Shown: positions 15,993-42,215, counted from the stretch's first letter. The stretch is DNA of 64,000 nucleotides from a virus (IMGVR_UViG_3300021431_002079:1975-65974); one strand, 5' to 3'. Numbers and translations are program-made. The notes: generated from the sequence alone by a model not told the origin.

Positions 15993-16400
15993 ATGAAATC
16001 ACTAAGTGTATACATACAAGAATCTGAAAAATCACCAAATGCATTTGTTATATTAAAACCAGGATTCATAAGTCATTTTGATGAATGGAAAAATATGTTA
16101 GAAGAAAATGGTTGGGAAATATTAAAAAAGAAAACAACTAAGTTATCATTAGATGATGCACAAAAATTATATAAGATGCATAAAGATAAAGATTTCTATA
16201 AAGATTTGTGTGAATACATGTCATCAGATAAATGCATATGTATGATTTGCTATAAAGATGTTAAAGACCCTATTGATAATATGAGTAAACTAAAAGATAA
16301 AGTTAGAAACAAATGGGGTAAAAGTGAAATGAAAAATGCTATGCATAGTTCAGACTCATTAAATAATGTTGTACGAGAAAAAAACATTATTTTTAATTAA
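15993..16400 (+). CDS. nucleoside diphosphate kinase-like protein (degenerate)
   Basis: N-terminal FVILKPGF resembles NDK FxxIKPDGV; C-terminal NAMHSSDSLNNVVREKNIIF aligns to NDK NxxHGSDSxExAxREIxLWF, with the catalytic-loop Gly replaced by Ser; 135 aa as in NDKs. Confidence 0.5.
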   Translation: MKSLSVYIQESEKSPNAFVILKPGFISHFDEWKNMLEENGWEILKKKTTKLSLDDAQKLYKMHKDKDFYKDLCEYMSSDKCICMICYKDVKDPIDNMSKLKDKVRNKWGKSEMKNAMHSSDSLNNVVREKNIIFN

Positions 16401-17000
16401 ATGAGAACTATAGATTCATACATAAATGAGAAACTAAATTTATCTACTAAGTACACATGTAAAGCAAAAAATAAAAGTGACCTTAGAAAGATAATAATAG
16501 AGCGTCTTAATAAAGATAAAAATGCCAATCTAAATGATATAGATGTATCAGGTATAACAGATATGTCATTTTTATTTGATGGATTAGGTCCTCATAATAT
16601 AGATATAAGTGAATGGGACGTTAGTAATGTTACAAATATGCATTCTATGTTTTTAAATTGTGAAAAATTTAATAGCGATTTAAGTAACTGGGATGTTAGT
16701 AATGTTAAAAATATGAATACTATGTTTTATATGTGTGATAATTTTAATTCTGATGTAAGTGACTGGAATGTCTCAAATGTTACACAAATGCATGGGATGT
16801 TTTATGGGTGTTATAGTTTTAATAATGATATAAGTAAATGGGATGTTAGTAATGTTGAAGATATATCATACATGTTTTATTGTTGTGAAAAATTTAATTG
16901 TGACTTAAGTAACTGGGATGTCTCACCTAATATTAAAAAATTCTTAGCATTTAAATATTGTACTTCTTTAAAACCATTACCAAAATGGTACAAAAATTAA
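16401..17000 (+). CDS. DUF285 / bacterial-surface-protein 26-residue-repeat protein with CTS-like leader
   Basis: N-terminus MRTIDSYINEKLNLS; repeats FLNCEKFNSDLSNWDVSNVKNMNTMF etc.; C-terminal ...LKPLPKWYKN. Confidence 0.7.
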   Translation: MRTIDSYINEKLNLSTKYTCKAKNKSDLRKIIIERLNKDKNANLNDIDVSGITDMSFLFDGLGPHNIDISEWDVSNVTNMHSMFLNCEKFNSDLSNWDVSNVKNMNTMFYMCDNFNSDVSDWNVSNVTQMHGMFYGCYSFNNDISKWDVSNVEDISYMFYCCEKFNCDLSNWDVSPNIKKFLAFKYCTSLKPLPKWYKN

Positions 17001-20916: not shown

Positions 20917-23022
20917 ATGAAGTCTTTTCCAAGTTCACTTAATGAATCTAAATCATCACTTGGTATTTCAAATGCAGCGAAATATGAGAAAGCATTTGAT
21001 TTAGATAGAATTAAGTCTGGAGCTCTTAATTTAAATAAAACAGCCCCAGTTGTACAAGAATTATTAAAACCACAAAATATTAATATTTCTAACTATCAAG
21101 GTTATCAGCAAATGTATTATGTAGATAACCCTAAGCATCTTGCATCTTTAGATTCTAATACAAGTAGATCACCAGAAGATCAACCAGTTTATTATGAAAA
21201 CCCATTAGAGTTGCCAGCAGATATTATAGCATTAGCAAAAGATTATGAATGGGTTTATAAAAATGGTTTACAAACATTAATAGGAGTAAACAGAAAAAAA
21301 GATCAAGCTACAGCGACGGTTGCAACTACATCTGTATCACCATCAATGTTTAATCCAATGTATGGTGTAATTGTCAAAGGTATAACAGCTAATACCCCAT
21401 TATTAAATGATGTGACAGATAAAAGTTTAAACCCAAAAATTGGTGATTGTTCAATACGTACATTATGTGCATTATCAAAACAAAAACAAAGTGAATTAGG
21501 ACAGGCAAGATACAAGTATGCGGACTTTATGTATTGTAAAGATCTCGGTAAAATACCAAATAACCATTTAATAACATTACGTAAGTTCCCATTTCCTGTT
21601 GGAGATAATATATTTGAAGAAACGGGTCCAAAATTCTATAGAGGAAAATATGGGTATCAAATGCCTGGAGATGTAGGTAGAATGATAACATGGTTTGGTA
21701 CTGAAGAAAACAAACTTGAAAATATATGTAAGTATGATTTTCATGCAACATGGAAACCTCTTGAATCACAAATTGAACAAAAAGATACAACTGCAGATGA
21801 TCAAACAACTGGTTTTATTGGTTTATTAGAAAATTCATTTGGTGCTGGTTATAATTCTGGAGTTGCTAATGGCTCTGTTGGTACACATAGTATTTGGACA
21901 AAACTTGCATCAACAGTTACAGGAAATATCCCAATTGTAAGTAAATATTTAGATCCAACACAAGGTATAGGTAAAAATAATGAGTTGTTAAAAAACTACG
22001 ATAGAAATAAAGTTTATGAGCCAAAAAACACTATTCAATCAACACATATATATGAAGGTAAATTATTGTTTAATCAACAATTTGATTTGACTTTTACATA
22101 TCAGTTGAAAGCGTATGATAACATTAATCCTCGTTCAGCTATGTTAGATTTACTCGGTAATATATTAGAAGTAACATATCGTAGAGGTGTTTTCTGGGGT
22201 GGTTCACGTAAGCTAATTGGTCCTGCACAAGATACATCGTTATATCATAAAGTTAGTAGTATTGTAGATAAATCATTTGATGGTTTAGGAGATTTCTTTA
22301 ATGGTTTAGCATCAGGATCAATTACTATGAATTCACTTCTTGGTTCATTGTCATCAAGTGTTAAAAATTTTTTAAATGGAGTTACAGAAATAGCAAAAAA
22401 CCCATCAGATGCATTTAATAATCTAACAGGAGCATTAAAAAATGCATTATCTGGTATTAATCTAACAGGTGCATCAAAAGGTTTAATATTAAATGCTTTA
22501 GGTCGTCCAACATTATATGCATGGCAGAGTTTATTATCTGGAGATCCTGTTGGTTTATGGCATGTGACTATTGGTAACCCTCGTAATCCTATATTAGCTA
22601 TTGGTAATTTAATATTGGATAATACACAAGTGATACAGAGTGGCCCATTAGGCTTAGATGATTTCCCAACAGAATTAAAAGTTATAGTTACATTAAAACA
22701 TGCAAAGCCTCGCGATGTTGTAGATATATCAAGAATGTATACAAGAGGTGCTGCAGCAATATATCAACCATTAGGTAAAAATAGTGTTAGTAGATTTTTT
22801 GGTAAAAGCAATAGCTATATAACACCAAATAATGAAAAAGATGTCAATAAACTAGTTGAACAAGAAACACAAAATATAATGAAAGAACCTGATGAAGATA
22901 CAGAATTTTTTACAAATGGGTTATCTAATCCATTTTTAACAACAAATGATGAGGTTAGAATAAATAGAACAAATAACTGGAGTAATACAATGTTCTCTAT
23001 GGCCATGCAAGAAATAGCATAA
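20917..23022 (+). CDS. hypothetical protein (701 aa), probable virion structural protein
   Basis: long ORF; Gly/Ser/Asn-rich helical segment (GLASGSITMNSLLGSLSSSVKNFLNG...); no enzymatic motif. Confidence 0.5.
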   Translation: MKSFPSSLNESKSSLGISNAAKYEKAFDLDRIKSGALNLNKTAPVVQELLKPQNINISNYQGYQQMYYVDNPKHLASLDSNTSRSPEDQPVYYENPLELPADIIALAKDYEWVYKNGLQTLIGVNRKKDQATATVATTSVSPSMFNPMYGVIVKGITANTPLLNDVTDKSLNPKIGDCSIRTLCALSKQKQSELGQARYKYADFMYCKDLGKIPNNHLITLRKFPFPVGDNIFEETGPKFYRGKYGYQMPGDVGRMITWFGTEENKLENICKYDFHATWKPLESQIEQKDTTADDQTTGFIGLLENSFGAGYNSGVANGSVGTHSIWTKLASTVTGNIPIVSKYLDPTQGIGKNNELLKNYDRNKVYEPKNTIQSTHIYEGKLLFNQQFDLTFTYQLKAYDNINPRSAMLDLLGNILEVTYRRGVFWGGSRKLIGPAQDTSLYHKVSSIVDKSFDGLGDFFNGLASGSITMNSLLGSLSSSVKNFLNGVTEIAKNPSDAFNNLTGALKNALSGINLTGASKGLILNALGRPTLYAWQSLLSGDPVGLWHVTIGNPRNPILAIGNLILDNTQVIQSGPLGLDDFPTELKVIVTLKHAKPRDVVDISRMYTRGAAAIYQPLGKNSVSRFFGKSNSYITPNNEKDVNKLVEQETQNIMKEPDEDTEFFTNGLSNPFLTTNDEVRINRTNNWSNTMFSMAMQEIA

Positions 23023-23044: not shown

Positions 23045-23716
23045 ATGAAAAACATAAATAGCTACATACAAGAGAAGCTAAATTTATCCACTAAGTATAC
23101 CTGTAAACCAAAAACTTTGGTAGACCTTGAAAATATAATAGGAGAGCGTCTTGAAAAAAATAAAGATGCCAACTTAAATGATATAGATGTATCAGAAATA
23201 ACGGATATGTCATATTTATTTGGTGATTTAGACCCACATAATATAGACATAAGTGAATGGGATGTGTCAAATGTTAAAGATATGCGAGCTATGTTTCAGT
23301 ATTGTGAAAATTTTAATTGTGATTTAAGCTATTGGGACGTTTCCAATGTTACAGATATGTTTGAGATGTTTTATGGATGTAAAAATTTTAACTGTGATTT
23401 ATCTGAGTGGAACGTCTCAAAAGTTACAGATATGAATGGTATGTTTTTTAATTGTGAAAAATTTAATTCTGATTTGAGTGAATGGAATGTCTCAAATGTC
23501 GAAGATATGAGATGGATGTTTAAAAATTGTATAAATTTTAATTCTGATTTAAGTGATTGGGGTGTTTCAAATGTTGAAAACATGAACAATATGTTTTATG
23601 GGTGCGAGAAATTTAATTGTGATTTAAGTAATTGGGATATATCTAATGTTAAATATAAAAATGGGATGTTTGTTGGGTGTAACTTATTAAAAAATATACC
23701 AACTTGGTACAAATGA
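23045..23716 (+). CDS. DUF285 / 26-residue-repeat protein with CTS-like leader (paralog 1 of 7)
   Basis: MKNINSYIQEKLNLS leader; 6 repeats of FxxCxxFNxDLSxWxVSNVxxMxxMF; ends ...NIPTWYK; stop overlaps next ATG (ATGA). Confidence 0.75.
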   Translation: MKNINSYIQEKLNLSTKYTCKPKTLVDLENIIGERLEKNKDANLNDIDVSEITDMSYLFGDLDPHNIDISEWDVSNVKDMRAMFQYCENFNCDLSYWDVSNVTDMFEMFYGCKNFNCDLSEWNVSKVTDMNGMFFNCEKFNSDLSEWNVSNVEDMRWMFKNCINFNSDLSDWGVSNVENMNNMFYGCEKFNCDLSNWDISNVKYKNGMFVGCNLLKNIPTWYK

Positions 23717-24312
23717 AAAACATAAATAGCTACATACAAGAAAAACTTAATTTATCTAAAGACATTATTAAACCAAAAGATAAAAAGCAACTTAGAAAGA
23801 TAATAGAAGAGCGTCTTAAAGAAAATAAAGATGCTAACTTAAATGATATAGATGTATCAAATATAACAAATATGGCATTTTTGTTTAAAGGATTAGACCC
23901 ACATAATATAGATATTAGTGAATGGGATGTTAGTAATGTTAAAGATATGAATTATATGTTTGCACATTGTGATTATTTTAATTCTGACCTAAGTGAGTGG
24001 GATGTTAGTAATGTTGAAGATATGAAATATATGTTTTATTATTGTGAAAACTTTAATTGTGACATAAGTAATTGGGATGTTTCACATGTTAAAAATATGA
24101 TTGCTATGTTTGAAGGGTGTGAAAAATTTAACAGTGATTTATCTAACTGGGATGTTAGTAATGTTGAAGATATGAGATGGATGCTTAATAAATGTCATAA
24201 TTTTAATTGTGATTTAAATGATTGGAATGTCTCTAATGTAAAAAATATGAGTTATATGTTTTATGGGTGTAACTCATTAGAAAATATACCAACTTGGTAC
24301 AAAAACAAATGA
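23713..24312 (+). CDS. DUF285 / 26-residue-repeat protein with CTS-like leader (paralog 2)
   Basis: identical leader MKNINSYIQEKLNLS (first about 30 nt identical to 23045); 5 repeats; start chosen at internal MK of track ORF 23704. Confidence 0.75.
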   Translation: MKNINSYIQEKLNLSKDIIKPKDKKQLRKIIEERLKENKDANLNDIDVSNITNMAFLFKGLDPHNIDISEWDVSNVKDMNYMFAHCDYFNSDLSEWDVSNVEDMKYMFYYCENFNCDISNWDVSHVKNMIAMFEGCEKFNSDLSNWDVSNVEDMRWMLNKCHNFNCDLNDWNVSNVKNMSYMFYGCNSLENIPTWYKNK

Positions 24313-24908
24313 AAAAAATAAATACATATATAAATGAGAAGTTAAATTTATCTGCTCATAAATATACTTGTAAACCAAAAGATAAAGATGAACTTAGAGA
24401 TATAATAAAGGAACGTCTTGAGAAAGATAAAAATGTCAATCTAAATGATATAGATGTATCAGGTATAACAGATATGTCATATTTATTTTATGAGTTAGAT
24501 CCTCACAACATAGATATAAGTGAGTGGGACGTTTCTAATGTTACAGATATGTTTGAGATGTTTTGGGGATGTAAAAATTTTAATTCAAATTTGTCTAATT
24601 GGGATGTATCAAAAGTTACAGATATGAATGGTATGTTTTTTAATTGTGAAAAATTTAATTCTGATTTGAGTGAATGGAATGTCTTAAATGTTGAAGATAT
24701 GGGATTAATGTTTAAAAATTGTATAAATTTTAATTCTGATTTAAGTAACTGGGATGTATTAAATGTTATTAATATATTTAATATGTTTAATGGATGTAAA
24801 AAATTTGATTGTGATTTAAGTAATTGGGATATATCTAATGTTAAATATAAAAATGGGATGTTTGTTGGGTGTAACTTATTAAAAAATATACCAAACTGGT
24901 ACAAATGA
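24309..24908 (+). CDS. DUF285 / 26-residue-repeat protein with CTS-like leader (paralog 3)
   Basis: MKKINTYINEKLNLS; 5 repeats; ATGA overlap. Confidence 0.75.
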   Translation: MKKINTYINEKLNLSAHKYTCKPKDKDELRDIIKERLEKDKNVNLNDIDVSGITDMSYLFYELDPHNIDISEWDVSNVTDMFEMFWGCKNFNSNLSNWDVSKVTDMNGMFFNCEKFNSDLSEWNVLNVEDMGLMFKNCINFNSDLSNWDVLNVINIFNMFNGCKKFDCDLSNWDISNVKYKNGMFVGCNLLKNIPNWYK

Positions 24909-25504
24909 AAAAAATAAATACATATATAAATGAGAAGCTAAACATATCAACTAAGTATGCATACAAACCAAAAAATAAAATGGAATTAATAGATTTAGTT
25001 TCAGACCGTATTGAACATAACCCAAATGCAAGCTTAAACGATATAGATGTATCAGGTATAACAGATATGTCATATTTATTTGAACTTGAAGATCCTTATA
25101 ATATAGATATAAGTGAATGGGATGTAAGTAATGTTACAAATATGAGTAATATGTTTAGTGTATGTGAGAATTTAAATTGCGATATATCTAATTGGGATGT
25201 TAGCAATGTTACAGATATGAGTGGTATGTTTTGGGGTTGTAAGAATTTTGATTGCGATTTAAGTGGTTGGGATGTCTCAAGTGTTGAAGATATGAATTCT
25301 ATGTTTCGTATGTGTTATAAATTTAATTCAAACATAAGTGGTTGGGATGTTAGCAATGTTAAAAATATAACTTGTATGTTTATGAATTGTGACAAGTTTA
25401 ATTGTGATTTGAACAATTGGCCTATACGAAAATATACCCGTATGTTTAGTGCATTTTATGGGTGTGATTCATTAAAAAATAAACCAAAGTGGTACAAAAG
25501 TTAA
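24905..25504 (+). CDS. DUF285 / 26-residue-repeat protein with CTS-like leader (paralog 4)
   Basis: MKKINTYINEKLNIS (5' 33 nt identical to 24309); 5 repeats. Confidence 0.75.
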   Translation: MKKINTYINEKLNISTKYAYKPKNKMELIDLVSDRIEHNPNASLNDIDVSGITDMSYLFELEDPYNIDISEWDVSNVTNMSNMFSVCENLNCDISNWDVSNVTDMSGMFWGCKNFDCDLSGWDVSSVEDMNSMFRMCYKFNSNISGWDVSNVKNITCMFMNCDKFNCDLNNWPIRKYTRMFSAFYGCDSLKNKPKWYKS

Positions 25505-25954
25505 ATGAAAGCTATAGATACATACATAAATGAAAAATTAAATTTATCTACACAGTATACTTGTAAACCAAAAGATTCAGATGAACTTAGACGTATAATA
25601 AAGGAACGTATTGAGAAAGATAAAGATGCTAATTTAAACGACATAGATGTATCAGATATAACAGATATGAATGCTTTATTTTATTCATTAGATCCTTATA
25701 ATATAGATTTATCTGAATGGGAGGTCTCAAATGTTGAAGACATGGATTATATGTTTATGAACTGTACTAAATTTAATTGTGATTTATCTTGTTGGGATGT
25801 CTCAAATGTTAAAAGTATGAACAAAATGTTTTATGATTGTAAAAAATTTAATACTAACTTAAATGATTGGGAGGTCTCAAATGTTAAGAGTATGAATTAT
25901 ATATTTGATGGATGTACATCATTAAAAAATAAACCTAACTGGTATAAAAGTTAA
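25505..25954 (+). CDS. DUF285 / 26-residue-repeat protein with CTS-like leader (paralog 5, 3 repeats)
   Basis: MKAIDTYINEKLNLS; shortest copy (149 aa). Confidence 0.75.
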   Translation: MKAIDTYINEKLNLSTQYTCKPKDSDELRRIIKERIEKDKDANLNDIDVSDITDMNALFYSLDPYNIDLSEWEVSNVEDMDYMFMNCTKFNCDLSCWDVSNVKSMNKMFYDCKKFNTNLNDWEVSNVKSMNYIFDGCTSLKNKPNWYKS

Positions 25955-26626
25955 ATGAAAGCTATAGATACATACATAAATGAGAAACTAAATTTATCTA
26001 CTAAGTATACTTGTAAACCAAAAAATAATGATGAGCTTAGGAAGATAATAATAGAGCGTCTTAATAAAAATGAAGATGTAAATTTGAACGATATAGATGT
26101 ATCAGATATAACAGATATGTCATTTTTATTTGATAGATTAGGTCCTCATAATATAGATATAAGTGAGTGGGATGTCTCAAATGTTACAGATATGAATGCT
26201 ATGTTTTATGATTGTGATAATTTTAATTGTGATTTAAGTGAATGGGATGTCTCTAATGTTACAAATATGCATTCTATGTTTTTAAATTGTGAAAAATTTA
26301 ATAGCGATTTAAGTAACTGGGATGTTAGTAATGTTAAAAATATGTATAGAATGTTTTATAATTGTGATAATTTTAATTCTGATTTAAGTGAGTGGGATGT
26401 ATCTAATGTCACAAATATGACATGTATGTTTGAATGGTGTCAAAAATTTAATTGTGACTTAAGTGATTGGGATGTCTCAAATGTTACAAATATGTATAGA
26501 ATGTTTTATAATTGTAATAATTTTAATTCTGATTTAAGTGAGTGGGATGTTAGTAATGTTGAAGATATGTATAAGATGTTTTATGGTTGTATATCTTTAA
26601 AAAATAAACCTAGTTGGTACTTATGA
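25955..26626 (+). CDS. DUF285 / 26-residue-repeat protein with CTS-like leader (paralog 6, 6 repeats)
   Basis: MKAIDTYINEKLNLS identical leader to 25505; conserved junction ...WYKS-TAA-ATG. Confidence 0.75.
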   Translation: MKAIDTYINEKLNLSTKYTCKPKNNDELRKIIIERLNKNEDVNLNDIDVSDITDMSFLFDRLGPHNIDISEWDVSNVTDMNAMFYDCDNFNCDLSEWDVSNVTNMHSMFLNCEKFNSDLSNWDVSNVKNMYRMFYNCDNFNSDLSEWDVSNVTNMTCMFEWCQKFNCDLSDWDVSNVTNMYRMFYNCNNFNSDLSEWDVSNVEDMYKMFYGCISLKNKPSWYL

Positions 26627-26994
26627 AAACAATAAACAACTACATAAATGAGAAACTAAATTTATCTAAGTATACTTGTAAACCAAAAGATAAAGAAGAG
26701 CTTAGAAAGATAATATGGAAGCGTCTTGAGAAAGATAAAGATGCTAATTTAAACGACATAGATGTATCAGGTATAAAAGGTATGTCATGGTTATTTTATA
26801 ATTTAGATCCTCATGACATAGATATAAGTGAGTGGGATGTTTCAAATGTTGAGGATATGGGAGGTATGTTTAGTGGATGTAAAAATTTTAATTCAGATTT
26901 AAGTGATTGGGATGTGTCTAATGTTGTAAATATGGATAACATGTTTGATGGATGTACATCTCTAAAAAATAAACCAAGCTGGTATAAAAGATAA
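26623..26994 (+). CDS. DUF285 / 26-residue-repeat protein with CTS-like leader (paralog 7, 2-3 repeats)
   Basis: MKTINNYINEKLNLS; start chosen at internal MK of track ORF 26614. Confidence 0.7.
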   Translation: MKTINNYINEKLNLSKYTCKPKDKEELRKIIWKRLEKDKDANLNDIDVSGIKGMSWLFYNLDPHDIDISEWDVSNVEDMGGMFSGCKNFNSDLSDWDVSNVVNMDNMFDGCTSLKNKPSWYKR

Positions 26995-27065: not shown

Positions 27066-28115
27066 ATGAATAATTTATTGTACATTGGTCTTAATGGATT
27101 AGCTGGTTCTGGTAAAGATACTGTAGCTAAAATGCTTAAGACTATTTTATCAAAAGATTGGGAGACATTAGAAGAATGTAAGAAATATTATTTTTCAGTA
27201 TACACTAATCCTACACAATCAGCAACATTTCCGCCAACACCAGAAGATGAACATTCTCCAGTGATGTGTATTGCATATGCAGATCAACTTAAAGAAATAT
27301 GTTCATCAATATTTGGAATTCCTATTAAAAGATTTTATCAAAACAAATCAAATGCTTGGATATGTTTTAATGATAAATTCCAGTATACTGAGATAAAACC
27401 TAATCCTGAAAATATATTAACAGCTGAAGAGTATTATTATAATGTTTCAGGTTATAGTGTTGATTCTGATGTCAAATATTGGATGTCTTTACGAGAGGTC
27501 TTAGTTTATGTTGGTACTTATGTATTACAGCAAAACGTTAACAAACATATTTTTGTTAATATTGTTAGAAACAAAATTCGTGAAGCACAATGTAGGAATC
27601 ATAATTTGAAATATGTTATTATCACTGATAATAGATTTAAACATGAATTAGATTATATTTATGAGAACAATGGAACAACAATAACTATAACTCGTAATTC
27701 TGTTGAACAACTTGATAATGTTGCTGAACATCAGTTGGATGATGAAGAAAATTATGATTATGTTATAGATAATTCAGGATCTTATGATGAATTGTTTACA
27801 ACTATATGGGATATAATTCATAATGATATAATATTTAAGAATAAAACTATTGAATTATATACTAGAGATAATATTAATAATTACTTACGATTAGTTGAAA
27901 GTAATGAACAACGAGATATATATCAGTTATGTTTACCATATAAAATTCAAAAATTATATCGAAATGAAGGTAAAATAACAATGATAGATCCGACAGGTGG
28001 TCCATTAATATGTGTTGGAGAAAAAATAGAAGGAACTGATATTATACCTAATTATATATCCATGGATGAATCAAAAATACATAATGATTTCTTACTATGG
28101 GTAACAAAGGAATAG
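27066..28115 (+). CDS. P-loop kinase, dNMP-kinase (T4 gp1)-like N-terminal domain
   Basis: IGLNGLAGSGKDTVAKML matches the GxxxSGKDT P-loop of T4-type deoxynucleoside monophosphate kinases; C-terminal about 150 aa extra. Confidence 0.5.
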   Translation: MNNLLYIGLNGLAGSGKDTVAKMLKTILSKDWETLEECKKYYFSVYTNPTQSATFPPTPEDEHSPVMCIAYADQLKEICSSIFGIPIKRFYQNKSNAWICFNDKFQYTEIKPNPENILTAEEYYYNVSGYSVDSDVKYWMSLREVLVYVGTYVLQQNVNKHIFVNIVRNKIREAQCRNHNLKYVIITDNRFKHELDYIYENNGTTITITRNSVEQLDNVAEHQLDDEENYDYVIDNSGSYDELFTTIWDIIHNDIIFKNKTIELYTRDNINNYLRLVESNEQRDIYQLCLPYKIQKLYRNEGKITMIDPTGGPLICVGEKIEGTDIIPNYISMDESKIHNDFLLWVTKE

Positions 28116-31404: not shown

Positions 31405-31593
31405 ATGAAATCATTAAAAGAATACATAAATGAAGAATTACATGATGTAATTGTTAAAGTTGGCGATTACTGGAGAATAAAAGGTCATGCGGGTAAAGGG
31501 ACAAATACTCCTAAACGAGGATACTGGAAAGCTAAATATAAAACCAGAGAAGATGCTGAAAATGCATTAAAGGCATATTTTGCTAATAAATGA
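31405..31593 (+). CDS. CTS-like-leader small basic protein (62 aa)
   Basis: MKSLKEYINEEL leader; K/R-rich. Confidence 0.6.
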   Translation: MKSLKEYINEELHDVIVKVGDYWRIKGHAGKGTNTPKRGYWKAKYKTREDAENALKAYFANK

Positions 31594-31626
31594 AAATAAC
31601 TACAAAATAATCTATAAAATTAAAGT

Positions 31627-32166
31627 ATGAAAAATATTAACGAATATATAAATGAAAGTTCAAGTTTGTTTGATGATGGGGGATATGGAGACATGGCAAC
31701 AAACTATTTAGACTATTATGATGGTGACAAGAAATTTGGTGATCTTAAGAAGGGTGATATAATATACTTGTATAAATATTCTAATGATAAGATTATAGAA
31801 GTAACTGTCAATGGAACTGTTAAGACACAAAATAATCAAGTATATATAAAGACTAAATCATTCAAAATTAAACCAAATAGTAAATATTGTAAATCTCAAT
31901 CATCATTAGTATTTGGACCAGCAAATGGTAGCAGAAGTGGTCGTAGTGAAGACGATACAAAAGTTGTTGACTATTCTCCATGGAATGTTGAAAAATCTTC
32001 TATTTGTATTAGTTTTGGTGGAGGATATGCATTTGGAACTAACAAAGATAATGTTTTAAAATATGCAAAATCTGACATTACAAGTTCAATTAATAAGATA
32101 CAATCTGATATTGAAGACCTTCAAAATGAAATAAATAAATTGAGTGAAAAATTAAATAATATTTAA
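31627..32166 (+). CDS. CTS-like-leader protein (179 aa) with C-terminal coiled coil
   Basis: MKNINEYINESS leader. Confidence 0.6.
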   Translation: MKNINEYINESSSLFDDGGYGDMATNYLDYYDGDKKFGDLKKGDIIYLYKYSNDKIIEVTVNGTVKTQNNQVYIKTKSFKIKPNSKYCKSQSSLVFGPANGSRSGRSEDDTKVVDYSPWNVEKSSICISFGGGYAFGTNKDNVLKYAKSDITSSINKIQSDIEDLQNEINKLSEKLNNI

Positions 32167-32168
32167 TT

Positions 32169-32360
32169 ATGAAAACAATTAATCAATATATAAATGAAGG
32201 AACTCAAAATAACGAAGTTTTAGATTATCTTAAAAAGTTATATGATACATACACTAAAAAATTACATTCAAACTCAACAGTAATTGCAGATGTTGACAAA
32301 TACAGTTATGTTACTTACGAATTGAAGAAGATATTAAAAAAATTTAACGTTAATATATGA
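32169..32360 (+). CDS. CTS-like-leader small protein (63 aa)
   Basis: MKTINQYINEGT leader; ATGA overlap with next gene. Confidence 0.55.
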   Translation: MKTINQYINEGTQNNEVLDYLKKLYDTYTKKLHSNSTVIADVDKYSYVTYELKKILKKFNVNI

Positions 32361-32854
32361 AAACATTAAATAGTTATATAATACAAGAATCTTTAAAAGA
32401 TAAAATCAAAGCTTTAATAAATAAATTCAAAAAAGAAAAAGTTCCTGAAAAAGTTTATAAAGAAGAAGATTTATTAGAGTATAAAGATAAAGAAATAACT
32501 TTAGAAGATGGTGATGAAATCTTCGACATCTATACAAACACTTTACCTTATAAATCTAGTAGAACATCTGAATTTGAAAAGAATGCATTTAAGCAAGGTT
32601 TGTTCGATTATGCATGGTGTAATTATTCAAAAGATGTAGATAAAAACTTCAGATTTAATGAATTTGGAGATGATTTTGCAGATTGGGGATATTCTCGAGC
32701 TAATGATGAAAGTGGATATGACTGGAATGAAGTTGGTGTTGGGATGATGTTTATGGAACCATTCTTCTGGGGTTGGAAATGTGCGAAGAAATTAAATTTA
32801 AAATATAACTCAAAGGATAAAGTTAAATTACCTTTAAATAGATTTGCAAAATAA
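32357..32854 (+). CDS. CTS-like-leader protein (165 aa)
   Basis: MKTLNSYIIQESL leader. Confidence 0.6.
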   Translation: MKTLNSYIIQESLKDKIKALINKFKKEKVPEKVYKEEDLLEYKDKEITLEDGDEIFDIYTNTLPYKSSRTSEFEKNAFKQGLFDYAWCNYSKDVDKNFRFNEFGDDFADWGYSRANDESGYDWNEVGVGMMFMEPFFWGWKCAKKLNLKYNSKDKVKLPLNRFAK

Positions 32855-32858
32855 AATT

Positions 32859-33455
32859 ATGAAAACAATTAATCAATATATTACAGAATCAAATTACAAG
32901 TCATCAAACTTAGAAGATCTTAAGAAGCAACTTCTAAAAATGCATAATGGTGATCGTATTAATTTCTTGTGGGGTGTATCTCAAAAGGCAACAGATGCTA
33001 CTCAAAAAGATAGATATGTAACATATGCAATGTCTATTGACAAAACTCTAAATAAATATTATACATTCTCTTGTGATTTTATGTTCAGTCAAGGACATGA
33101 AATGGTTAAAGAAATCTGTAAAGATTTAGGAATTAAGAAATGGGCAAGACTTTTAGATATTGCTATAGTTGTAGATTATGAAGATATGGTTAAAATACTT
33201 GATGCAATGCCTAAATATTTTGATAAATACGCTAATAACAAAAAATATTTTAGTTTTGTATCATTTGACTATAAAGAAGCTGAAGAAGAATGTGCTCGTC
33301 AAAAACGTCCATTTGAGATTACTTCATTAGAAGATGAAATTAAAGCCACTGAGCAAGCAATAAAGAATCTTGAACAAAAGAAAGAACAACTTAATAAACT
33401 GAAGAAAGCCCAAGCTGAAGAAGATATGTATAAATGGGCAAATAGTGAAAAATAA
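32859..33455 (+). CDS. CTS-like-leader protein (about 198 aa) with C-terminal coiled coil
   Basis: MKTINQYITESN leader at internal Met of track ORF 32844. Confidence 0.6.
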   Translation: MKTINQYITESNYKSSNLEDLKKQLLKMHNGDRINFLWGVSQKATDATQKDRYVTYAMSIDKTLNKYYTFSCDFMFSQGHEMVKEICKDLGIKKWARLLDIAIVVDYEDMVKILDAMPKYFDKYANNKKYFSFVSFDYKEAEEECARQKRPFEITSLEDEIKATEQAIKNLEQKKEQLNKLKKAQAEEDMYKWANSEK

Positions 33456-33465
33456 AGACAATGTT

Positions 33466-34089
33466 ATGAAGTCACTTAATACTTATATTATAGAATCACA
33501 ACAATCTCATGTAGATGATTTCATTGATTTCTTGCTAAAAAATTCTAAAGAAGGAGAACTTAAGACTAATAATAAATCATACTATGATTATTTTAATGAA
33601 TGTGACCCTTTTGATAATTCAAAGTTTTCACAAAACATTGATATGACTGCTTATGCTGAAGACTATTGTGAAGAACATGAGTTAGATTCTGTATATGATG
33701 ATAAAGAAAACTTCATTAATTATATTAAAGATATAGTTGATGAACAATTGACTTTAGACTTAGATCATAATTTGATAAAGATTGAAAGAGTCATTAGTAT
33801 TGGTGATTCATCATTTTCAAAATATAAAGGAAATATAGGTATATATTGGACTTACATAGAAGGTATGGGTGATTCACATGGTGCTGTAGGTAGTTCAAGA
33901 AACAACATAACTATATGTGCATTAGTGGATCCTAAAGATGTAAATTGGGGAGAGACTATTGCAGCTAATATTATAGATCCAGATGAATGTGAATTAACAT
34001 TAAATGAAGATGCTCCTATACAAATTACAAAGATATTAGATGTTAACAGAAAACCTATAATAGAAAAAAATTTATTATATAAAGCTTAA
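33466..34089 (+). CDS. CTS-like-leader protein (about 207 aa)
   Basis: MKSLNTYIIESQ leader at internal Met of track ORF 33445. Confidence 0.6.
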   Translation: MKSLNTYIIESQQSHVDDFIDFLLKNSKEGELKTNNKSYYDYFNECDPFDNSKFSQNIDMTAYAEDYCEEHELDSVYDDKENFINYIKDIVDEQLTLDLDHNLIKIERVISIGDSSFSKYKGNIGIYWTYIEGMGDSHGAVGSSRNNITICALVDPKDVNWGETIAANIIDPDECELTLNEDAPIQITKILDVNRKPIIEKNLLYKA

Positions 34090-34733
34090 TGAAATCTTTG
34101 CATACATATATAGTCGAAAAATCATCAGATTTATATGGGTCAGAAACTGGTTTAATAATATTTGATATAGATGATACATTAGTTAAAGCAGATTCAAGTA
34201 TTATGAAAATATATAAAAATGAGCCAGGTAAACCAGAGATTGCATTAACAACGGATGAATATGCAAAAGATCCAGATGCAGGTGATTCAAGTAAAAAATC
34301 ATGGTTTGATTATAGAGATTTCAATGATCCATTAAAAGTTTATGATTCTATAGTTAAAGGAACACCATTAATTAAGAATCTAAAAATTATGGATTCATAT
34401 ATTAAAAAAGGTTATGATTTTTGTTTTTTGACGGCTCGTGGTTGTGAAGATGTTGTTAAAAGTGCATTAGATTCATTTTTAGAATTTAGAGATAAAGATG
34501 GTGTATTAAAAAAATTAGGAAATGTATTTAAGAAATCATTATCACATGCTATAAATGATGAAATGAAAAATTATTCAGGTAATAGTGATCCTGAAAAGAA
34601 AGCACAAGTATTAAAAAATTTATGTGATAAATATGATAAAGTGATATTTGTTGATGATGATAAGAAAAATGTAGATGCGGCTAGAAAATTAAATATAAAA
34701 AATCTAACAGTTATTAAAGCTTGGGAAGAATAA
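34089..34733 (+). CDS. HAD-superfamily phosphatase with CTS-like leader (Pnk-phosphatase-like candidate)
   Basis: leader MKSLHTYIVEKS; HAD motif I LIIFDIDDTLV (DxDxT); downstream FLTARG and VIFVDDDKKNV resemble motifs II/IV. Confidence 0.6.
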   Translation: MKSLHTYIVEKSSDLYGSETGLIIFDIDDTLVKADSSIMKIYKNEPGKPEIALTTDEYAKDPDAGDSSKKSWFDYRDFNDPLKVYDSIVKGTPLIKNLKIMDSYIKKGYDFCFLTARGCEDVVKSALDSFLEFRDKDGVLKKLGNVFKKSLSHAINDEMKNYSGNSDPEKKAQVLKNLCDKYDKVIFVDDDKKNVDAARKLNIKNLTVIKAWEE

Positions 34734-34755
34734 ATAAAAAATAAAATAAATATCT

Positions 34756-35406
34756 ATGAAATCATTAAAAGAATATATTATTAATGAATCTTTATCAAAT
34801 GAAATAACTGAATTAAGAAATAAATTAAAAAATTTAGATAAACAAAAAATTTTTGATGGAAATTATAATTTAGATGATTCATTAGATCAAGAATTTTATG
34901 ATATATTAATTTCATTAAATAGTCCAAATTCATCAAATAGTACTTTAATTAGTACATGGAAAATGTTGTTTTCAAAATTAATTGTTGAACCATTAGTTGG
35001 AGAATTAATAGGAGATAACAAATGTGAATACTCTACTATTAAAGTTGATAGAACAGAAAAATGGGATATTAAATATGATAACAATATATTAATAGACATA
35101 AAAGCAACTTATAATAATTATACACATAATTTTGGATTTTCTAAAAAGGATGCAGATTATGTAATAAATTATAATAAACAAGATATTAATAAAAGATATG
35201 TATTATTCGTATACCCAGAAATTAAAACTTGGAATGATGCTACGAAATTATATAAAAATAAATCTGAAGTTGACATGAAACTAATTAGTTATTCAGATTT
35301 TAAAGATATATTAAATAACAATGATTTTGAAGAAAAAAAATCAAACATATTAATTCCATATTCTTTCATTAATGAAAATGATAAATTTAGAAAGTTTAAA
35401 AAATAA
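34756..35406 (+). CDS. CTS-like-leader protein (216 aa)
   Basis: MKSLKEYIINESL leader. Confidence 0.6.
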   Translation: MKSLKEYIINESLSNEITELRNKLKNLDKQKIFDGNYNLDDSLDQEFYDILISLNSPNSSNSTLISTWKMLFSKLIVEPLVGELIGDNKCEYSTIKVDRTEKWDIKYDNNILIDIKATYNNYTHNFGFSKKDADYVINYNKQDINKRYVLFVYPEIKTWNDATKLYKNKSEVDMKLISYSDFKDILNNNDFEEKKSNILIPYSFINENDKFRKFKK

Positions 35407-35426
35407 TTAATTATATTAAAGCTATA

Positions 35427-35459
35427 AGAAAATCTATTAATAATGGATTTTCTTTTTTA
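35427..35459 (+). terminator. rho-independent terminator inside the cassette array
   Basis: stem agaaaatc / gattttct then T6. Confidence 0.5.
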
Positions 35460-35492
35460 TTTTTAAATATAAGAAAATTTTATTAAAACAAA

Positions 35493-36638
35493 ATGAAAAG
35501 TTTAAAAGAATCATTATCAGATAAAGGTATACAAAAATTAACAGATTATCTTAAATCTGCTGAAGGTTTAGAAGATTCAAAAATTGACGAATATATTAAA
35601 GTATTATCAAAACATGCCAAAAAATCAGGTATAAAACAAGATGACTATGAAACATTCTTTAAAAATCATGGTTTATCTGAATTAAATTGGGGAAGAAAAA
35701 ATAGTGCAATTAAACAATTTGTTGATTTATTCTCTGAAAATGATCATATAGATGAATTATCAAACATAGTAAAATATAATGGAACTGTTTCTATTGATAA
35801 TGTAACAGAAACTGGTAATATATTTAAGGATTATTGTAAAGGGTGGGAAGATGAAGCAAAAACAATTGCTACATGGACCAATTCTAAATCGGCTAATGCT
35901 GGACCTTGTGAAATGCTTTTGAAATTTATACTTCATGAAGGTAATTCTAAAACTTTTGGAGATGTTGGAATAAATGATGAAGAAATGGAAGTAAAAGCTG
36001 GAACACTTAAAGGAAAATCTGGTTCAGGCGGTCATGCAGCAGGTCAAAAAGGAAACATTAGAAAAACATCGTCTATATATTATTATTTAGATAAATATTT
36101 ATTAAATATAGAAACATCTAATAAGATTGCAGAAAATAGAGAATATTTGCAAAATGAAAATGGTATTAAAGATTTTAATAATAAATTAAAAGAAGCTGGT
36201 TTACTTGAATCATCAAATTATAAAACGATTGCTAATAATATAGTTGGTGCATTATGCTTCCAATATGATGAAGCAAATACTAATACATTAAATTCTGATA
36301 AATTAGAAAATTTGCAAAAATCAACATTAAAATTTATTAAAGATAATATAAAGGCAGACGGGTTTAATAAACAAGATTTATTAAATTTAGTTGGGTGTAT
36401 TCAATTATATCTTTATTCACAAATAGAAAAATTTGATTATTTTTTCGCTGTGCTTGTAGATAAAAACATAGATAATGAATCTATTAATAATGGCTTTTAT
36501 ATTTGTGTAAAAAATTGTAAAGATAATGATAGTGATTTATTAAATTTTAATAAAATGTTAAAACATTTAAAATTTGGTGTATTAGATTCAACAACATCTT
36601 CACAAGGAAGAACTGGTAAAATATATATAGTTAAATAA
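35493..36638 (+). CDS. hypothetical protein (381 aa) with truncated leader
   Basis: MKSLKESLSD (leader lacking YI); Gly-rich KGKSGSGGHAAGQKGN segment. Confidence 0.5.
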   Translation: MKSLKESLSDKGIQKLTDYLKSAEGLEDSKIDEYIKVLSKHAKKSGIKQDDYETFFKNHGLSELNWGRKNSAIKQFVDLFSENDHIDELSNIVKYNGTVSIDNVTETGNIFKDYCKGWEDEAKTIATWTNSKSANAGPCEMLLKFILHEGNSKTFGDVGINDEEMEVKAGTLKGKSGSGGHAAGQKGNIRKTSSIYYYLDKYLLNIETSNKIAENREYLQNENGIKDFNNKLKEAGLLESSNYKTIANNIVGALCFQYDEANTNTLNSDKLENLQKSTLKFIKDNIKADGFNKQDLLNLVGCIQLYLYSQIEKFDYFFAVLVDKNIDNESINNGFYICVKNCKDNDSDLLNFNKMLKHLKFGVLDSTTSSQGRTGKIYIVK

Positions 36639-39158: not shown

Positions 39159-39179
39159 AAATATATAATATAATAAATT

Positions 39180-39581
39180 ATGAAAAATATAGTAGATTAC
39201 ATATCTGAAGCATTATATGTAAACGAGAGTGCTAATGGTAACCAAGTTATATTTAACGCTTGTATGGAATTAGATAATAATAAAACAATATATGAAAAAC
39301 AACTTTTGCCATTAGTTAAAAATTTAGTAAAGAAACACAAAGATGGTAAGTTCGATATTAAAAAACTTGAAGAATCATCAGTTATAGCTAAGTTATGCCA
39401 AGCATGTTTACGTGCAGTTAAAAGCTCATTAACTGGTGAAGATAGAAAGCGTTTGACTAAATTTGTTACTGGTTGTGTTATTAAAAATGTTGAAAACATT
39501 GGAGAACTAACACTAACAAAGGAAGAAGAAGATTATGCTGTTGAATGGGATTACAATAATTCCGAAAAATGTGGATGGTAA
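39180..39581 (+). CDS. CTS-like-leader protein (133 aa)
   Basis: MKNIVDYISEAL leader. Confidence 0.55.
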   Translation: MKNIVDYISEALYVNESANGNQVIFNACMELDNNKTIYEKQLLPLVKNLVKKHKDGKFDIKKLEESSVIAKLCQACLRAVKSSLTGEDRKRLTKFVTGCVIKNVENIGELTLTKEEEDYAVEWDYNNSEKCGW

Positions 39582-39584
39582 TAC

Positions 39585-40943: not shown

Positions 40944-40969
40944 AATATAAAAAAATTATATAAATAAAA

Positions 40970-41260: not shown

Positions 41261-41266
41261 AATGAT

Positions 41267-42204: not shown

Positions 42205-42215
42205 TAATTTATATT

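What the first reader, a model, noticed from the sequence alone, without database searches (positions are those of the whole stretch)
23045..26994. Tandem arrays of leader-tagged DUF285 (26-residue-repeat) proteins with identical 5' ends and variable repeat number
Seven head-to-tail genes here, three at 45519-47221 and one at 16401, encode proteins of 125-227 aa. Each is built from the leader, a conserved about 50-aa segment (KLNLSTKYTCKPKDKxELRxIIxERLxKDKDANLNDIDVSxITDMSxLF), 3-7 copies of FxxCxxFNxDLSxWDVSNVxxMxxMF, and a conserved tail (GCxSLKNKPxWYK). Adjacent genes share perfectly identical 30-33-nt 5' ends (for example 23045 vs 23713; 24309 vs 24905; 25505 vs 25955) and overlap by ATGA or TAAATG. 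That is ideal substrate for unequal crossing-over that changes copy and repeat number. A surface-protein repeat family fused to a capsid-targeting-like leader and amplified in a lytic phage is unusual. Candidate roles are injected decoys or host-factor binders, or population-level variation of an injected effector.
Basis: partly seen in the sequence, partly recalled or inferred. Interest (0 to 1): 0.65.

Follow-up and report, generated by a model that had tools for sequence, protein, structure and literature searches.

The report
Head-targeting-tagged LRR gene arrays, huge phage
A large uncultivated phage carries eleven copies of a small leucine-rich-repeat binding protein, each starting with a ten-residue tag that closely resembles the phage T4 signal for loading proteins into the capsid. 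The phage therefore probably injects a varied set of binder proteins into its host, but nothing has yet shown these proteins in the virion.

Summary
Seven head-to-tail genes at 23045-26994, one at 16401 and three at 45519-47221 all match Pfam DUF285 (E down to 1e-67).

- **Leader:** the motif M-K-x-[IL]-x-x-[YF]-I-x-E occurs 25 times in the window against 0.12 expected. All copies are on the + strand and 24 sit at ORF starts, heading unrelated proteins. It has the same layout as the T4 capsid-targeting sequence (MKTYQEFIAE) and ends in the L/I-x-E cleavage motif of T4 gp21. A gp21-family prohead protease lies at 51532.
- **Array evolution:** the paralogs are old and under purifying selection (dS 0.4-1.2, omega 0.2-0.7). 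They are also mosaic, with exact matches of 76-91 nt shifted by one repeat unit. The seven-gene array fills a junction that is only 66-614 nt long in 41 related metagenome contigs.

Best reading (confidence 0.6): these are capsid-loaded, probably injected LRR binders that diversify by repeat and gene recombination. Packaging, cleavage and targets are untested. I rate it a new variant of a known kind, with moderately high interest.

The parts
23045..23716 (+). DUF285 gene 1 of the main array: 223 aa, leader MKNINSYIQE, 6 full 25-aa repeats
   Evidence: Its 3' two-thirds are nearly identical to gene 3, offset by one repeat.
23713..24312 (+). DUF285 gene 2: 199 aa, 5 repeats, ATGA overlap with gene 1
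24309..24908 (+). DUF285 gene 3: 199 aa, 5 repeats, ATGA overlap with gene 2
24905..25504 (+). DUF285 gene 4: 199 aa, 5 repeats, ATGA overlap with gene 3
25505..25954 (+). DUF285 gene 5: 149 aa, 3 repeats, TAAATG abutment
25955..26626 (+). DUF285 gene 6: 223 aa, 6 repeats; this is the protein that was modelled
26623..26994 (+). DUF285 gene 7: 123 aa, 2 repeats, ATGA overlap with gene 6
16401..17000 (+). Solitary DUF285 paralog: 199 aa, 5 repeats, directly after the leader-tagged NDK gene
   Evidence: It shares a 91-nt exact match with gene 6, shifted by 75 nt.
45519..46202 (+). Second array, gene 1: 227 aa, 6 repeats, leader MLNINTYINE
46186..46716 (+). Second array, gene 2: 176 aa, 4 repeats, 17-nt overlap with gene 1
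46700..47221 (+). Second array, gene 3: 173 aa, 4 repeats, 17-nt overlap with gene 2
51532..53280 (+). Prohead protease of the T4 gp21 family (Peptidase_S77/S80) fused to a scaffold-like C-terminal part. Its own N-terminus, MTNKRCLIYE, fits positions 7, 8 and 10 of the leader.
53367..55139 (+). Major capsid protein. A TTG start gives MNINNMFINE, which is leader-like at positions 7, 8 and 10.
20917..23022 (+). Conserved 701-aa gene on the left flank of the main array; N-terminus MKSFPSSLNE
   Evidence: In relatives it lies directly next to the dNMP kinase gene.
27066..28115 (+). dNMP kinase gene on the right flank of the main array; no leader
15993..16400 (+). Leader-tagged nucleoside diphosphate kinase. 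The Pfam NDK match starts at residue 17, so the leader is an added N-terminal extension.
31405..42530 (+). Cluster of at least 14 further leader-tagged ORFs with unrelated cargo, starting at 31405, 31627, 32169, 32859, 33466, 34089 (HAD hydrolase), 37354, 38283, 39180, 40650, 40970, 41267, 41605 and 42216

Best explanation
The eleven genes encode small, acidic, cytoplasmically made LRR-solenoid proteins of the DUF285 / BspA-like / PARCEL family. Each carries a ten-residue N-terminal tag that works like the capsid-targeting sequence (CTS) of phage T4.

**Proposed sequence of events**
1. The genes are expressed together with the head genes. They are on the same strand, interleaved with structural genes, and joined by ATGA overlaps that suggest translational coupling (inferred).
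2. The decapeptide M-K-x-[IL]-x-x-Y-I-x-E docks the protein onto the scaffold/protease core of the assembling prohead (inferred by analogy with T4).
3. The gp21-family prohead protease cuts after Glu10 at the I-x-E motif and frees the mature LRR protein inside the head (inferred).
4. The proteins leave with the DNA at infection (inferred).
5. In the host they bind host proteins through the hypervariable faces of the solenoid. A likely target is a defence or takeover factor, with several paralogs widening the range of targets (speculative).

**What is shown rather than inferred**
- The family evolves by recombination between the 75-nt repeat units and between paralogs. This changes repeat number (2-6) and gene number.
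- The seven-gene array is an insertion, specific to this lineage, into a junction that is otherwise conserved.
For: **Family and fold**
- All 11 proteins match DUF285.
- The AF2 model has pLDDT 94.5. Residues 1-10 have low confidence, and a helix is predicted at residues 4-12.

**The leader as a modular tag**
- The motif occurs 25 times against 0.12 expected. All copies are on the + strand, and 24 are at the first Met of an ORF.
- It heads unrelated cargo, including an NDK and a HAD hydrolase whose Pfam domains start only after the tag.
- The Lak-phage homolog of the 37354 protein lacks the tag.
- Orthologs of the NDK and HAD genes in related contigs keep it.

**The leader compared with the T4 CTS**
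- T4 IPII and IPIII start MKTYQEFIAE|A and gp24 starts MAKINELLRE|S.
- In T4, residues 4 and 7 carry targeting and residues 8 and 10 carry processing. The gp21 cleavage motif is L/I-X-E (PMC9026906).
- Here, positions 1, 2, 4, 7, 8 and 10 are the conserved ones. In the non-DUF285 cargo, conservation stops at E10, and the next residue is mostly Ser.
- A Peptidase_S77 protease is encoded at 51532. Both it and the capsid protein start with leader-like decapeptides.
- Selection acts on the peptide, not the DNA. Leader pN/pS is 0.34, and codons at positions 4, 7 and 8 vary synonymously.

**The genes are functional**
- All ORFs are intact, with omega 0.2-0.7 at dS 0.4-1.2.
- Surface positions of the repeat evolve about as fast as synonymous sites (pN/pS about 1.0), against 0.46 for scaffold positions.

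**Recombination and variable content**
- A 91-nt exact match between g16401 and g25955 is shifted by 75 nt. Matches of 87 and 76 nt between g23045 and g24309 are shifted by 72 nt.
- The gap between the 701-aa gene and the kinase gene is 66-614 nt in 18 IMG/VR contigs and 41 metagenome contigs. In the window it is 4044 nt.
- The second array is absent from the same position in at least 10 relatives.
- Other relatives carry 1, 2 or 4 leader-tagged DUF285 genes at other sites.
- 38 of the 120 best database homologs carry the leader.
Against: - No proteomic or structural data place any of these proteins in a virion. Cleavage and ejection are inferred only by analogy with T4.
- In the DUF285 set, Lys rather than Ser/Ala/Gly follows E10. 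The next five residues (KLNLS) are even more conserved than the leader (pN/pS 0.08). The functional N-terminal module may therefore be longer, or may not be cut at E10.
- The mature proteins are acidic (pI 4.3-5.6), whereas the T4 internal proteins are described as basic (PMC9026906).
- Some tagged cargo consists of housekeeping-type enzymes (NDK, HAD hydrolase). These are unexpected capsid contents and leave room for a different kind of targeting.
- The nearest cultured relative examined, Tenacibaculum phage PTm1, has no such leader in the 50 kb around its head genes.
- In other phages, DUF285 repeats sit in giant or fibre-like proteins without a leader.
Confidence: 0.6

Rival explanations
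1. The decapeptide is a shared N-terminal tag with some other purpose. It could direct proteins to another intracellular site or assembly, act as an oligomerisation helix, or act as a stability or translation signal. The DUF285 proteins would then act inside the infected cell after being made there, without being packaged.
For: - Tagged cargo includes metabolic enzymes (NDK, HAD hydrolase), which are odd capsid contents.
- The DUF285 leaders have Lys after E10 and a conserved KLNLS extension.
- AF2 predicts a short amphipathic helix at residues 4-12.
- There are no virion data.
Against: - The tag has the same length as the T4 CTS and is conserved at the same positions. It ends in the gp21 cleavage motif, and the matching protease family is encoded nearby.
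- The capsid protein and the protease themselves begin with leader-like decapeptides, which ties the motif to head assembly.
- In the non-DUF285 cargo, conservation stops exactly at E10.
- Synonymous variation rules out a signal that acts at the DNA or mRNA level.
Confidence: 0.2
2. The DUF285 proteins are external virion components, either adhesins or decoration proteins. They would match their bacterial BspA-like surface relatives and the DUF285 domains found in fibre-like proteins of other large phages. The paralogs would widen host or substrate binding.
For: - DUF285 repeats occur in very large or fibre-neighbourhood proteins in phage PAU (gp103), Shewanella phage SXP01 and the uncultured phage LR756500.
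- Bacterial homologs often carry T9SS sorting domains (PF18962).
- The window also encodes a protein with three Big_2 domains and a BspA-type LRR at 17079-19166.
Against: - The proteins here are small (123-227 aa). They consist only of leader, caps and repeats, with no anchoring or fibre domain.
- They share their tag with enzymes that cannot plausibly be external fibres.
- Repeat number varies from 2 to 6, which fits poorly with a fixed structural position.
Confidence: 0.12
3. The arrays are selfish or neutral repeat expansions (PARCEL-type mobile coding repeats) with no function for the phage.
For: - PARCEL/DUF285 repeats are described as spreading by horizontal transfer and shuffling within genomes (PMC2996958).
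- Antisense ORFs run through the arrays.
- The arrays are absent from relatives.
Against: - All 11 ORFs are intact despite dS of 0.4-1.2, and omega is 0.2-0.7.
- The leader, caps and scaffold residues are strongly conserved.
- The leader-plus-DUF285 combination recurs in many independent contigs.
Confidence: 0.05

Closest known systems
Phage T4 internal proteins IPI/IPII/IPIII (and Alt, gp24), which carry the capsid-targeting sequence and are processed by prohead protease gp21
   Same: - Both have a ten-residue N-terminal tag starting M-K, with hydrophobic or aromatic residues at positions 4 and 7, I/L at 8 and E at 10.
- Both end in the L/I-x-E cleavage motif.
- The same tag sits on unrelated proteins.
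- A gp21-family protease is encoded in the same genome.
- The tagged genes sit in regions that vary between related phages (T4 side from PMC9026906 and PMC3012670).
   Different: - T4 has a handful of tagged proteins. This window alone has about 26-32.
- The cargo here is an amplified family of acidic LRR repeat proteins plus enzymes, not small basic proteins.
- The DUF285 leaders have Lys after E10 and a conserved KLNLS extension.
- Packaging and cleavage are untested here.
Head paralog families and ejection proteins of giant phages phiKZ, 201phi2-1 and SPN3US
   Same: - These are large phages whose heads hold many proteins, including families of up to 20 paralogs that vary in number between relatives.
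- Their proteins are processed after Glu by a gp21-related protease (PMC5694885; PMC9026906).
   Different: - Those propeptides are mostly longer than 100 residues, and the cleavage motif is S/A-x-E.
- Their paralog families are not DUF285/LRR.
- They have proteomic proof. This case has none.
DUF285 / TIGR02167 / PARCEL repeat proteins (BspA-family LRR surface proteins of Mollicutes, Bacteroidota, Listeria and others)
   Same: - The Pfam match is strong, with a canonical 25-aa/75-nt repeat and variable hydrophilic positions on a conserved scaffold.
- The family tends to multiply and shuffle within genomes.
- Antisense ORFs run through the coding repeats.
   Different: - Bacterial members are lipoproteins or secreted surface proteins, often with T9SS C-terminal domains.
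- The phage proteins have no signal peptide and carry a phage head-type leader instead.
- No periodic dyad symmetry was detected here.
LRR domains of bacterial injected type III effectors (IpaH, SspH1, YopM, XopL)
   Different: - The delivery machine is unrelated.
- These proteins have no attached enzymatic domain.
- This is an analogy only.

Membership tests
Pfam DUF285 (PF03382) / PARCEL / BspA-like LRR | Match to the family HMM above the curated cut-off | tested here: met
   All 11 proteins match. Member 1 scores 217 bits against a cut-off of 25, and the best E-value is 1.4e-67.
Pfam DUF285 (PF03382) / PARCEL / BspA-like LRR | Tandem 25-residue (75-nt) repeats with conserved scaffold residues and variable hydrophilic positions | tested here: met
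   The spacing between Trp anchors is exactly 25 aa in all 11 proteins. Repeat positions 2, 3, 5, 13, 20, 21, 23 and 24 are variable. The canonical period is given in PMC2996958.
Pfam DUF285 (PF03382) / PARCEL / BspA-like LRR | LRR-type solenoid fold | tested here: met
Pfam DUF285 (PF03382) / PARCEL / BspA-like LRR | Surface export signal (Sec or lipoprotein signal, or T9SS C-terminal domain), as in bacterial members | tested here: not met
   By inspection, the N-termini are hydrophilic (MKNINSYIQEKLNLSTKY...) and the C-termini end at WYK. No signal-peptide predictor was run. Bacterial homologs carry PF18962.
Pfam DUF285 (PF03382) / PARCEL / BspA-like LRR | Dyad symmetry of the repeat-coding DNA (the 'palindromic' part of PARCEL) | tested here: inconclusive
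   Only six weak AT-rich inverted repeats were found, with no 75-nt periodicity. Antisense ORFs do run through the arrays.
T4-type CTS-tagged internal head proteins | N-terminal propeptide of about 10 residues with key residues at positions 4 and 7 (targeting) and 8 and 10 (processing) | tested here: met
   The logo over 30 ORFs shows positions 1, 2, 4, 7, 8 and 10 conserved. T4 sequences were read from NC_000866. The roles of these positions come from PMC9026906.
T4-type CTS-tagged internal head proteins | Propeptide ends in the gp21 cleavage motif L/I-x-E | tested here: met
   I-x-E occupies positions 8-10 in all 11 DUF285 proteins and in 16 of the 19 other leader ORFs listed; the other 3 have L or V at position 8. 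The motif is given in PMC9026906.
T4-type CTS-tagged internal head proteins | A gp21-family prohead protease is encoded by the same phage | tested here: met
   The ORF at 51532-53280 matches Peptidase_S77 (E 6.6e-12) and PHROG head maturation protease (E 2.5e-42).
T4-type CTS-tagged internal head proteins | The same tag sits on several unrelated proteins (a modular tag) | tested here: met
   Tagged proteins include an NDK, a HAD hydrolase, an NTase-like pair, DUF285 proteins and many unknowns. A Lak homolog lacks the tag.
T4-type CTS-tagged internal head proteins | Physical presence in the head, removal of the tag by the protease, and ejection into the host | not testable with these tools
   This needs virion proteomics with N-terminal mapping. 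No cultured phage with this leader was found.
phiKZ/SPN3US-type head paralog families | Long propeptides (over 100 residues) with S/A-x-E cleavage sites | tested here: not met
   The leader is 10 residues long with I-x-E. The giant-phage features come from PMC5694885.

The most novel reading that the evidence does not exclude
A clade of huge gut/rumen phages uses a T4-like decapeptide to load dozens of different proteins into the capsid. Within that system, the DUF285 arrays would be a fast-evolving repertoire of injected LRR binders. New specificities would arise by shuffling 75-nt repeat units and whole genes. The acidic solenoids would neutralise host defence or takeover targets at the moment of DNA entry. 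This would be a phage counterpart of LRR effector and receptor repertoires.
Probability: 0.25. Interest if true: 0.8.

Novelty: new variant of a known kind. Interest (0 to 1): 0.6.

Why it matters
- **Easy discovery of capsid cargo.** If the tag is a true capsid-targeting signal, the packaged and injected protein set of an uncultivated huge-phage clade could be listed by a simple sequence rule. There are already about 30 candidates in this 64 kb.
- **T4-style loading beyond T4.** The short-tag system of T4 would extend far outside the T4-like phages.
- **A new role for a common repeat family.** The DUF285 arrays would be the first case of a widespread bacterial surface-repeat family being reused as injected phage cargo. 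Their mosaic, copy-variable structure would be a readable record of an arms race.
- **A possible tool.** The decapeptide could be tried for loading foreign proteins into such phages.

Tried and rejected
- **Close relatives among deposited phages.** A megablast of 10 kb around the array found nothing. A tblastn with a leader-plus-N-cap consensus also found nothing.
- **Experimental support from a cultured relative.** The 50-kb head region of Tenacibaculum phage PTm1 has no such leader. PAU, SXP01 and LR756500 carry DUF285 only in large or fibre-context proteins without the tag.
- **Same-species contigs for strain-level copy-number comparison.** The exact-protein look-up found only a 1.7-kb contig that breaks just inside gene 2.
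- **The leader as a DNA-level recombination or translation signal.** Rejected, because synonymous divergence in the leader (pS 0.53) is as high as elsewhere and codons vary at conserved residues.
- **Pseudogenes or neutral expansion.** Rejected on intact ORFs and omega below 1.
- **Dyad symmetry of the PARCEL type.** Not evident.
- **Literature.** Searches found no description of leader-tagged DUF285 proteins in phages.
- **tRNA scan.** None in the window.
- **Site-wise dN/dS across repeat units.** The estimate is crude and saturated. It shows fast-evolving surface positions but does not prove positive selection.

Full report
**1. Observation**

The ORF list shows seven + strand genes packed head to tail between 23045 and 26994. 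Paralogs lie at 16401-17000 and at 45519-47221, the latter holding three genes.

An alignment of the 11 proteins gives 62-75% identity to the first. The invariant residues fall in four parts:
- the N-terminal leader;
- a roughly 50-aa N-cap (KPK..EL..II..RL......LNDIDVS.ITDMS.LF);
- the repeats;
- the tail GC.SLKNKP.WYK.

All 11 match Pfam DUF285, with a best E-value of 1.4e-67. They also match several PHROG families of unknown function.

The adjacent pairs 23045/23713, 24309/24905 and 25505/25955 share exact 5' prefixes of 29, 33 and 29 nt. Junctions in the first array are ATGA overlaps or TAAATG abutments. The second array has 17-nt overlaps, in which the tail of the upstream protein is read from the leader DNA of the next gene in another frame.

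- The repeat period is exactly 75 nt, or 25 aa. This is the canonical period reported for this repeat family (PMC2996958).
- Each protein has 2-6 full repeats plus an N-terminal half repeat.

**2. What kind of genome this is**

The window has about 27% GC. It has no near match among deposited phage genomes. It encodes these recognisable genes:

| Position | Product |
|---|---|
| 51532-53280 | prohead protease (Peptidase_S77 and S80; PHROG head maturation protease) |
| 53367-55139 | major capsid protein |
| 58873-61926 | tail sheath |
| 29567-31207 | neck-type protein |
| 48610-50724 | SPFH protein |
| 27066-28115 | dNMP kinase |
| 28097-28930 | GH19 endolysin |

By protease and capsid protein, the nearest deposited phages are an uncultured 462-kb phage (LR756500), Tenacibaculum phages pT24 and PTm1, Sphingomonas phage PAU and the Lak megaphages, all at 30-48% identity. 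Related metagenome contigs reach 376-435 kb, and some of the 47 contigs from the metagenome scan are labelled human gut. This is therefore a piece of a very large myovirus-type phage. A Bacteroidota-type host is a guess, based on these relatives and on the T9SS domains in bacterial DUF285 homologs.

**3. The fold**

An AlphaFold2 model of the 223-aa protein at 25955 was built with a 50-sequence alignment. Its mean pLDDT is 94.5. Only residues 1-20 are uncertain (block means 58 and 73), with a short helix predicted at residues 4-12.

- Foldseek against the PDB gave only weak LRR matches.

Within the 25-residue unit (consensus F-x-x-C-x-x-F-N-x-D-L-S-x-W-D-V-S-N-V-x-x-M-x-x-M), positions 2, 3, 5, 13, 20, 21, 23 and 24 are highly variable. 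The mature proteins are acidic, with pI 4.3-5.6, and Cys-rich.

**4. The leader**

This is the key to interpreting the finding.

*Occurrence.* A strict pattern, M-[KR]-x-[ILV]-x-x-[YF]-[ILV]-x-E, occurs 25 times in the six-frame translation of the window. Shuffled sequence gives 0.12. All 25 copies are on the + strand and 24 are at the first Met of their ORF. Looser variants head several more ORFs:
- the third-array gene at 45519;
- the ORFs at 40970, 32357 and 34756;
- the 701-aa gene just upstream of the array (MKSFPSSLNE);
- the capsid protein (TTG start, MNINNMFINE);
- the protease itself (MTNKRCLIYE).

*Cargo.* The tagged proteins are unrelated to one another. They include a nucleoside diphosphate kinase whose Pfam match starts at residue 17, a HAD hydrolase, a pair of about 300-aa paralogs, and many proteins of unknown function. 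The Lak-B2 homolog of the 37354 protein begins where the mature protein would begin and has no tag. Orthologs of the NDK and HAD genes in related contigs keep the tag. The decapeptide is therefore a modular, conserved N-terminal addition.

*Conservation pattern.* Positions 1, 2, 4, 7, 8 and 10 are conserved. In the non-DUF285 proteins, conservation ends abruptly at E10 and the next residue is mostly Ser. Codons at L/I4, Y7 and I8 vary synonymously. Among the DUF285 paralogs, leader pN/pS is 0.34 at pS 0.53. Selection therefore acts on the peptide, not on the DNA.

**5. Comparison with T4**

I read the T4 N-termini directly from NC_000866:

| Protein | N-terminus |
|---|---|
| T4 IPII, IPIII | MKTYQEFIAE\|A |
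| T4 gp24 | MAKINELLRE\|S |
| T4 IPI | MKTFKEF... |
| This window (consensus) | M-K-x-[IL]-x-x-[YF]-I-x-E\|[S/K/G] |

According to the review PMC9026906:
- the first 10 residues of IPIII are sufficient for packaging;
- targeting depends mainly on residues 4 and 7;
- processing depends on residues 8 and 10;
- gp21 cuts after Glu in the motif L/I-X-E.

The leader here has the same length, the same conserved positions and the same terminal motif. The matching protease family is encoded 25 kb away. T4 internal proteins are also described as a diverse, poorly conserved set that shares only the CTS (PMC3012670; PMC9026906). Giant phages such as SPN3US carry head paralog families of up to 20 members (PMC5694885).

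The most economical reading is that the tag is a CTS-like head-targeting propeptide and that the DUF285 proteins are its most amplified cargo. This is an inference from sequence. Nothing here shows packaging, cleavage or ejection.

**6. Points that weaken the capsid-targeting reading**

- The DUF285 leaders have Lys after E10, followed by KLNLS, which is more strongly conserved than the leader itself (pN/pS 0.08). A similar extension (EKLKINKDSK) follows the leader on many small proteins in a related contig (L034, 16 ORFs) and on many database homologs. The functional module in this subclass may be about 16-18 residues long, or it may not be cut at E10.
- The proteins are acidic, unlike the basic T4 internal proteins.
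- An NDK and a HAD hydrolase are unusual capsid cargo.
- The cultured relative PTm1 shows no such leader around its head genes.

**7. Evolution of the arrays**

*Age and selection.* The paralogs are not recent copies. Pairwise dS is 0.4-1.2 and omega is 0.2-0.7, so all 11 genes are maintained by selection. Variable repeat positions evolve about as fast as synonymous sites (pN/pS about 1.0), against 0.46 for scaffold positions. That estimate is crude and saturated. It is compatible with diversifying selection but does not prove it.

*Recombination footprints*.
- g16401 and g25955 share 37-nt, 31-nt and shorter exact blocks in register. They then share a 91-nt exact block shifted by 75 nt, which means one repeat unit was gained or lost.
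- g23045 and g24309 share 87-, 76-, 39- and 28-nt exact blocks at a constant 72-nt offset. That offset is one repeat unit minus a one-codon difference near the N-terminus.
- The 5' ends of g23045 and g24309 instead match their downstream neighbours. The genes are therefore mosaics.
- The longest identical tracts lie in the repeats and the N-cap, not in the leader.

**8. Variation between relatives**

*Main array.*
- In 18 distinct IMG/VR contigs, the homolog of the 701-aa gene is followed directly by the dNMP kinase gene.
- In all 41 metagenome contigs that carry both genes, the gap between them is 66-614 nt.
- In the window, that gap is 4044 nt and holds the seven DUF285 genes.

*Second array.* Synteny from the 42216 ORF through 47301, 47579 and 48069 to the SPFH gene is kept in at least 10 relatives. 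None of them has the 842-aa gene or the three DUF285 genes at that position. The interval instead holds other leader-tagged cargo, such as a P-loop kinase-like protein.

*DUF285 content elsewhere.*

| Contig(s) | Leader-tagged DUF285 genes |
|---|---|
| L016, L017 | one 120-aa gene beside the NDK gene |
| L042 | one gene at a different site |
| L043 | two genes at a different site |
| L009, L010 | tandem set of four (174, 198, 148 and 249 aa) |
| L003 | two genes at a contig end |

Of the 120 best homologs in the 5.8-billion-protein database, 38 start with the leader.

Copy number, position and repeat number therefore all vary across the clade, in the manner of a cassette region. I could not test variation within one population. 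No same-species contig was found.

**9. Other readings**

- **Tag with a different purpose, proteins not packaged.** Plausible, at about 0.2. It is hard to reconcile with the capsid protein and the protease carrying the same motif, or with the exact match to the T4 layout.
- **External adhesin or decoration role.** Suggested by DUF285 domains in giant or fibre-context proteins of PAU, SXP01 and LR756500. The proteins here have no anchoring domain and share their tag with enzymes. About 0.12.
- **Neutral or selfish expansion.** Contradicted by purifying selection. About 0.05.

**10. Novelty**

The building blocks are known: the DUF285/PARCEL repeat, the T4 CTS with gp21 processing, and paralog-rich heads of giant phages. 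I found no description of three things:
- a T4-style decapeptide on some 26-32 ORFs in a single 64-kb stretch of a huge phage;
- its fusion to a bacterial surface-repeat family;
- amplification of that cargo into mosaic tandem arrays specific to one lineage.

I rate it a new variant of a known kind. Interest is about 0.6, because the claim can be tested directly and would open the capsid cargo of an uncultivated phage clade to sequence-based discovery.

Noticed in passing
window 9504-42530, + strand (ORF starts 9504, 15993, 31405, 31627, 32169, 32859, 33466, 34089, 37354, 38283, 39180, 40650, 40970, 41267, 41605, 42216): The same 10-residue leader heads at least 15 ORFs that are not DUF285. 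They include an NDK (15993), a HAD hydrolase (34089) and a pair of about 300-aa paralogs (37354, 38283) whose Lak-phage homolog lacks the tag. Variants with a one-residue insertion occur at 32357 and 34756, and an MKSLKESL variant at 35493.
   Followed up: partly
window 53367-55139 and 51532-53280: The capsid protein ORF appears to start at TTG, giving MNINNMFINE, which is leader-like. The protease (582 aa) is an S77 domain fused to a long scaffold-like C-terminal part with a weak KilA-N hit. Its N-terminus, MTNKRCLIYE, also fits positions 7, 8 and 10.
   Followed up: partly
window 17079-19166, +: A 695-aa protein with three Big_2 Ig-like domains and a BspA-type LRR_5 region, and no leader. 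It is a likely external adhesin or decoration protein, lying directly after the solitary DUF285 gene.
   Followed up: no
window 42713-45241, +: An 842-aa ORF with a signal-peptide-like N-terminus (MKTIYITLLCILLNF...) and no family match. It sits just upstream of the three-gene DUF285 array, and both are missing from the same position in at least 10 related contigs.
   Followed up: partly
window 24503-24904 (-), 46203-46700 (-), and shorter ORFs at 23371-23589 and 26811-27023 (-): Long antisense ORFs run through the DUF285 repeats. This property has been reported for PARCEL coding repeats. They are probably not genes.
   Followed up: partly
window 55220-56446 (-), 62630-63709 (-), 56430-58689 (-): Two homing-endonuclease-like genes and a methyltransferase-like gene lie on the minus strand, inserted between the capsid and tail sheath genes. 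GC skew is locally reversed there.
   Followed up: no
L034 (IMGVR_UViG_3300031993_000442), 80-20400: Sixteen small leader-tagged ORFs in tandem, most starting MKxLNxYIxEKLKINKDSK and followed by unrelated domains of about 100 aa. This is a whole cassette region of tagged cargo in a related phage.
   Followed up: no
window 45519-47221: In the second array, the upstream genes run 17 nt into the leader-coding DNA of the next gene in another frame (for example ...WYHEEDN* over MKKITNY). The original stop codon at the junction seems to have been lost.
   Followed up: no
whole window: Among + strand ORFs of at least about 100 codons, stop codons are TAA 45, TGA 5 and TAG 1. There are no tRNA genes in the 64 kb. 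No in-frame TAG recoding was evident, although Lak megaphages are among the relatives.
   Followed up: partly
window 9504-10820 and L003 4241-8029: The leader-like 438-aa ORF at 9504 shares an NYFT.VVTT.GN..W.G motif with a 1262-aa protein in L003 that is rich in BspA/LRR_5 repeats. This suggests a second LRR-type family in these phages.
   Followed up: no
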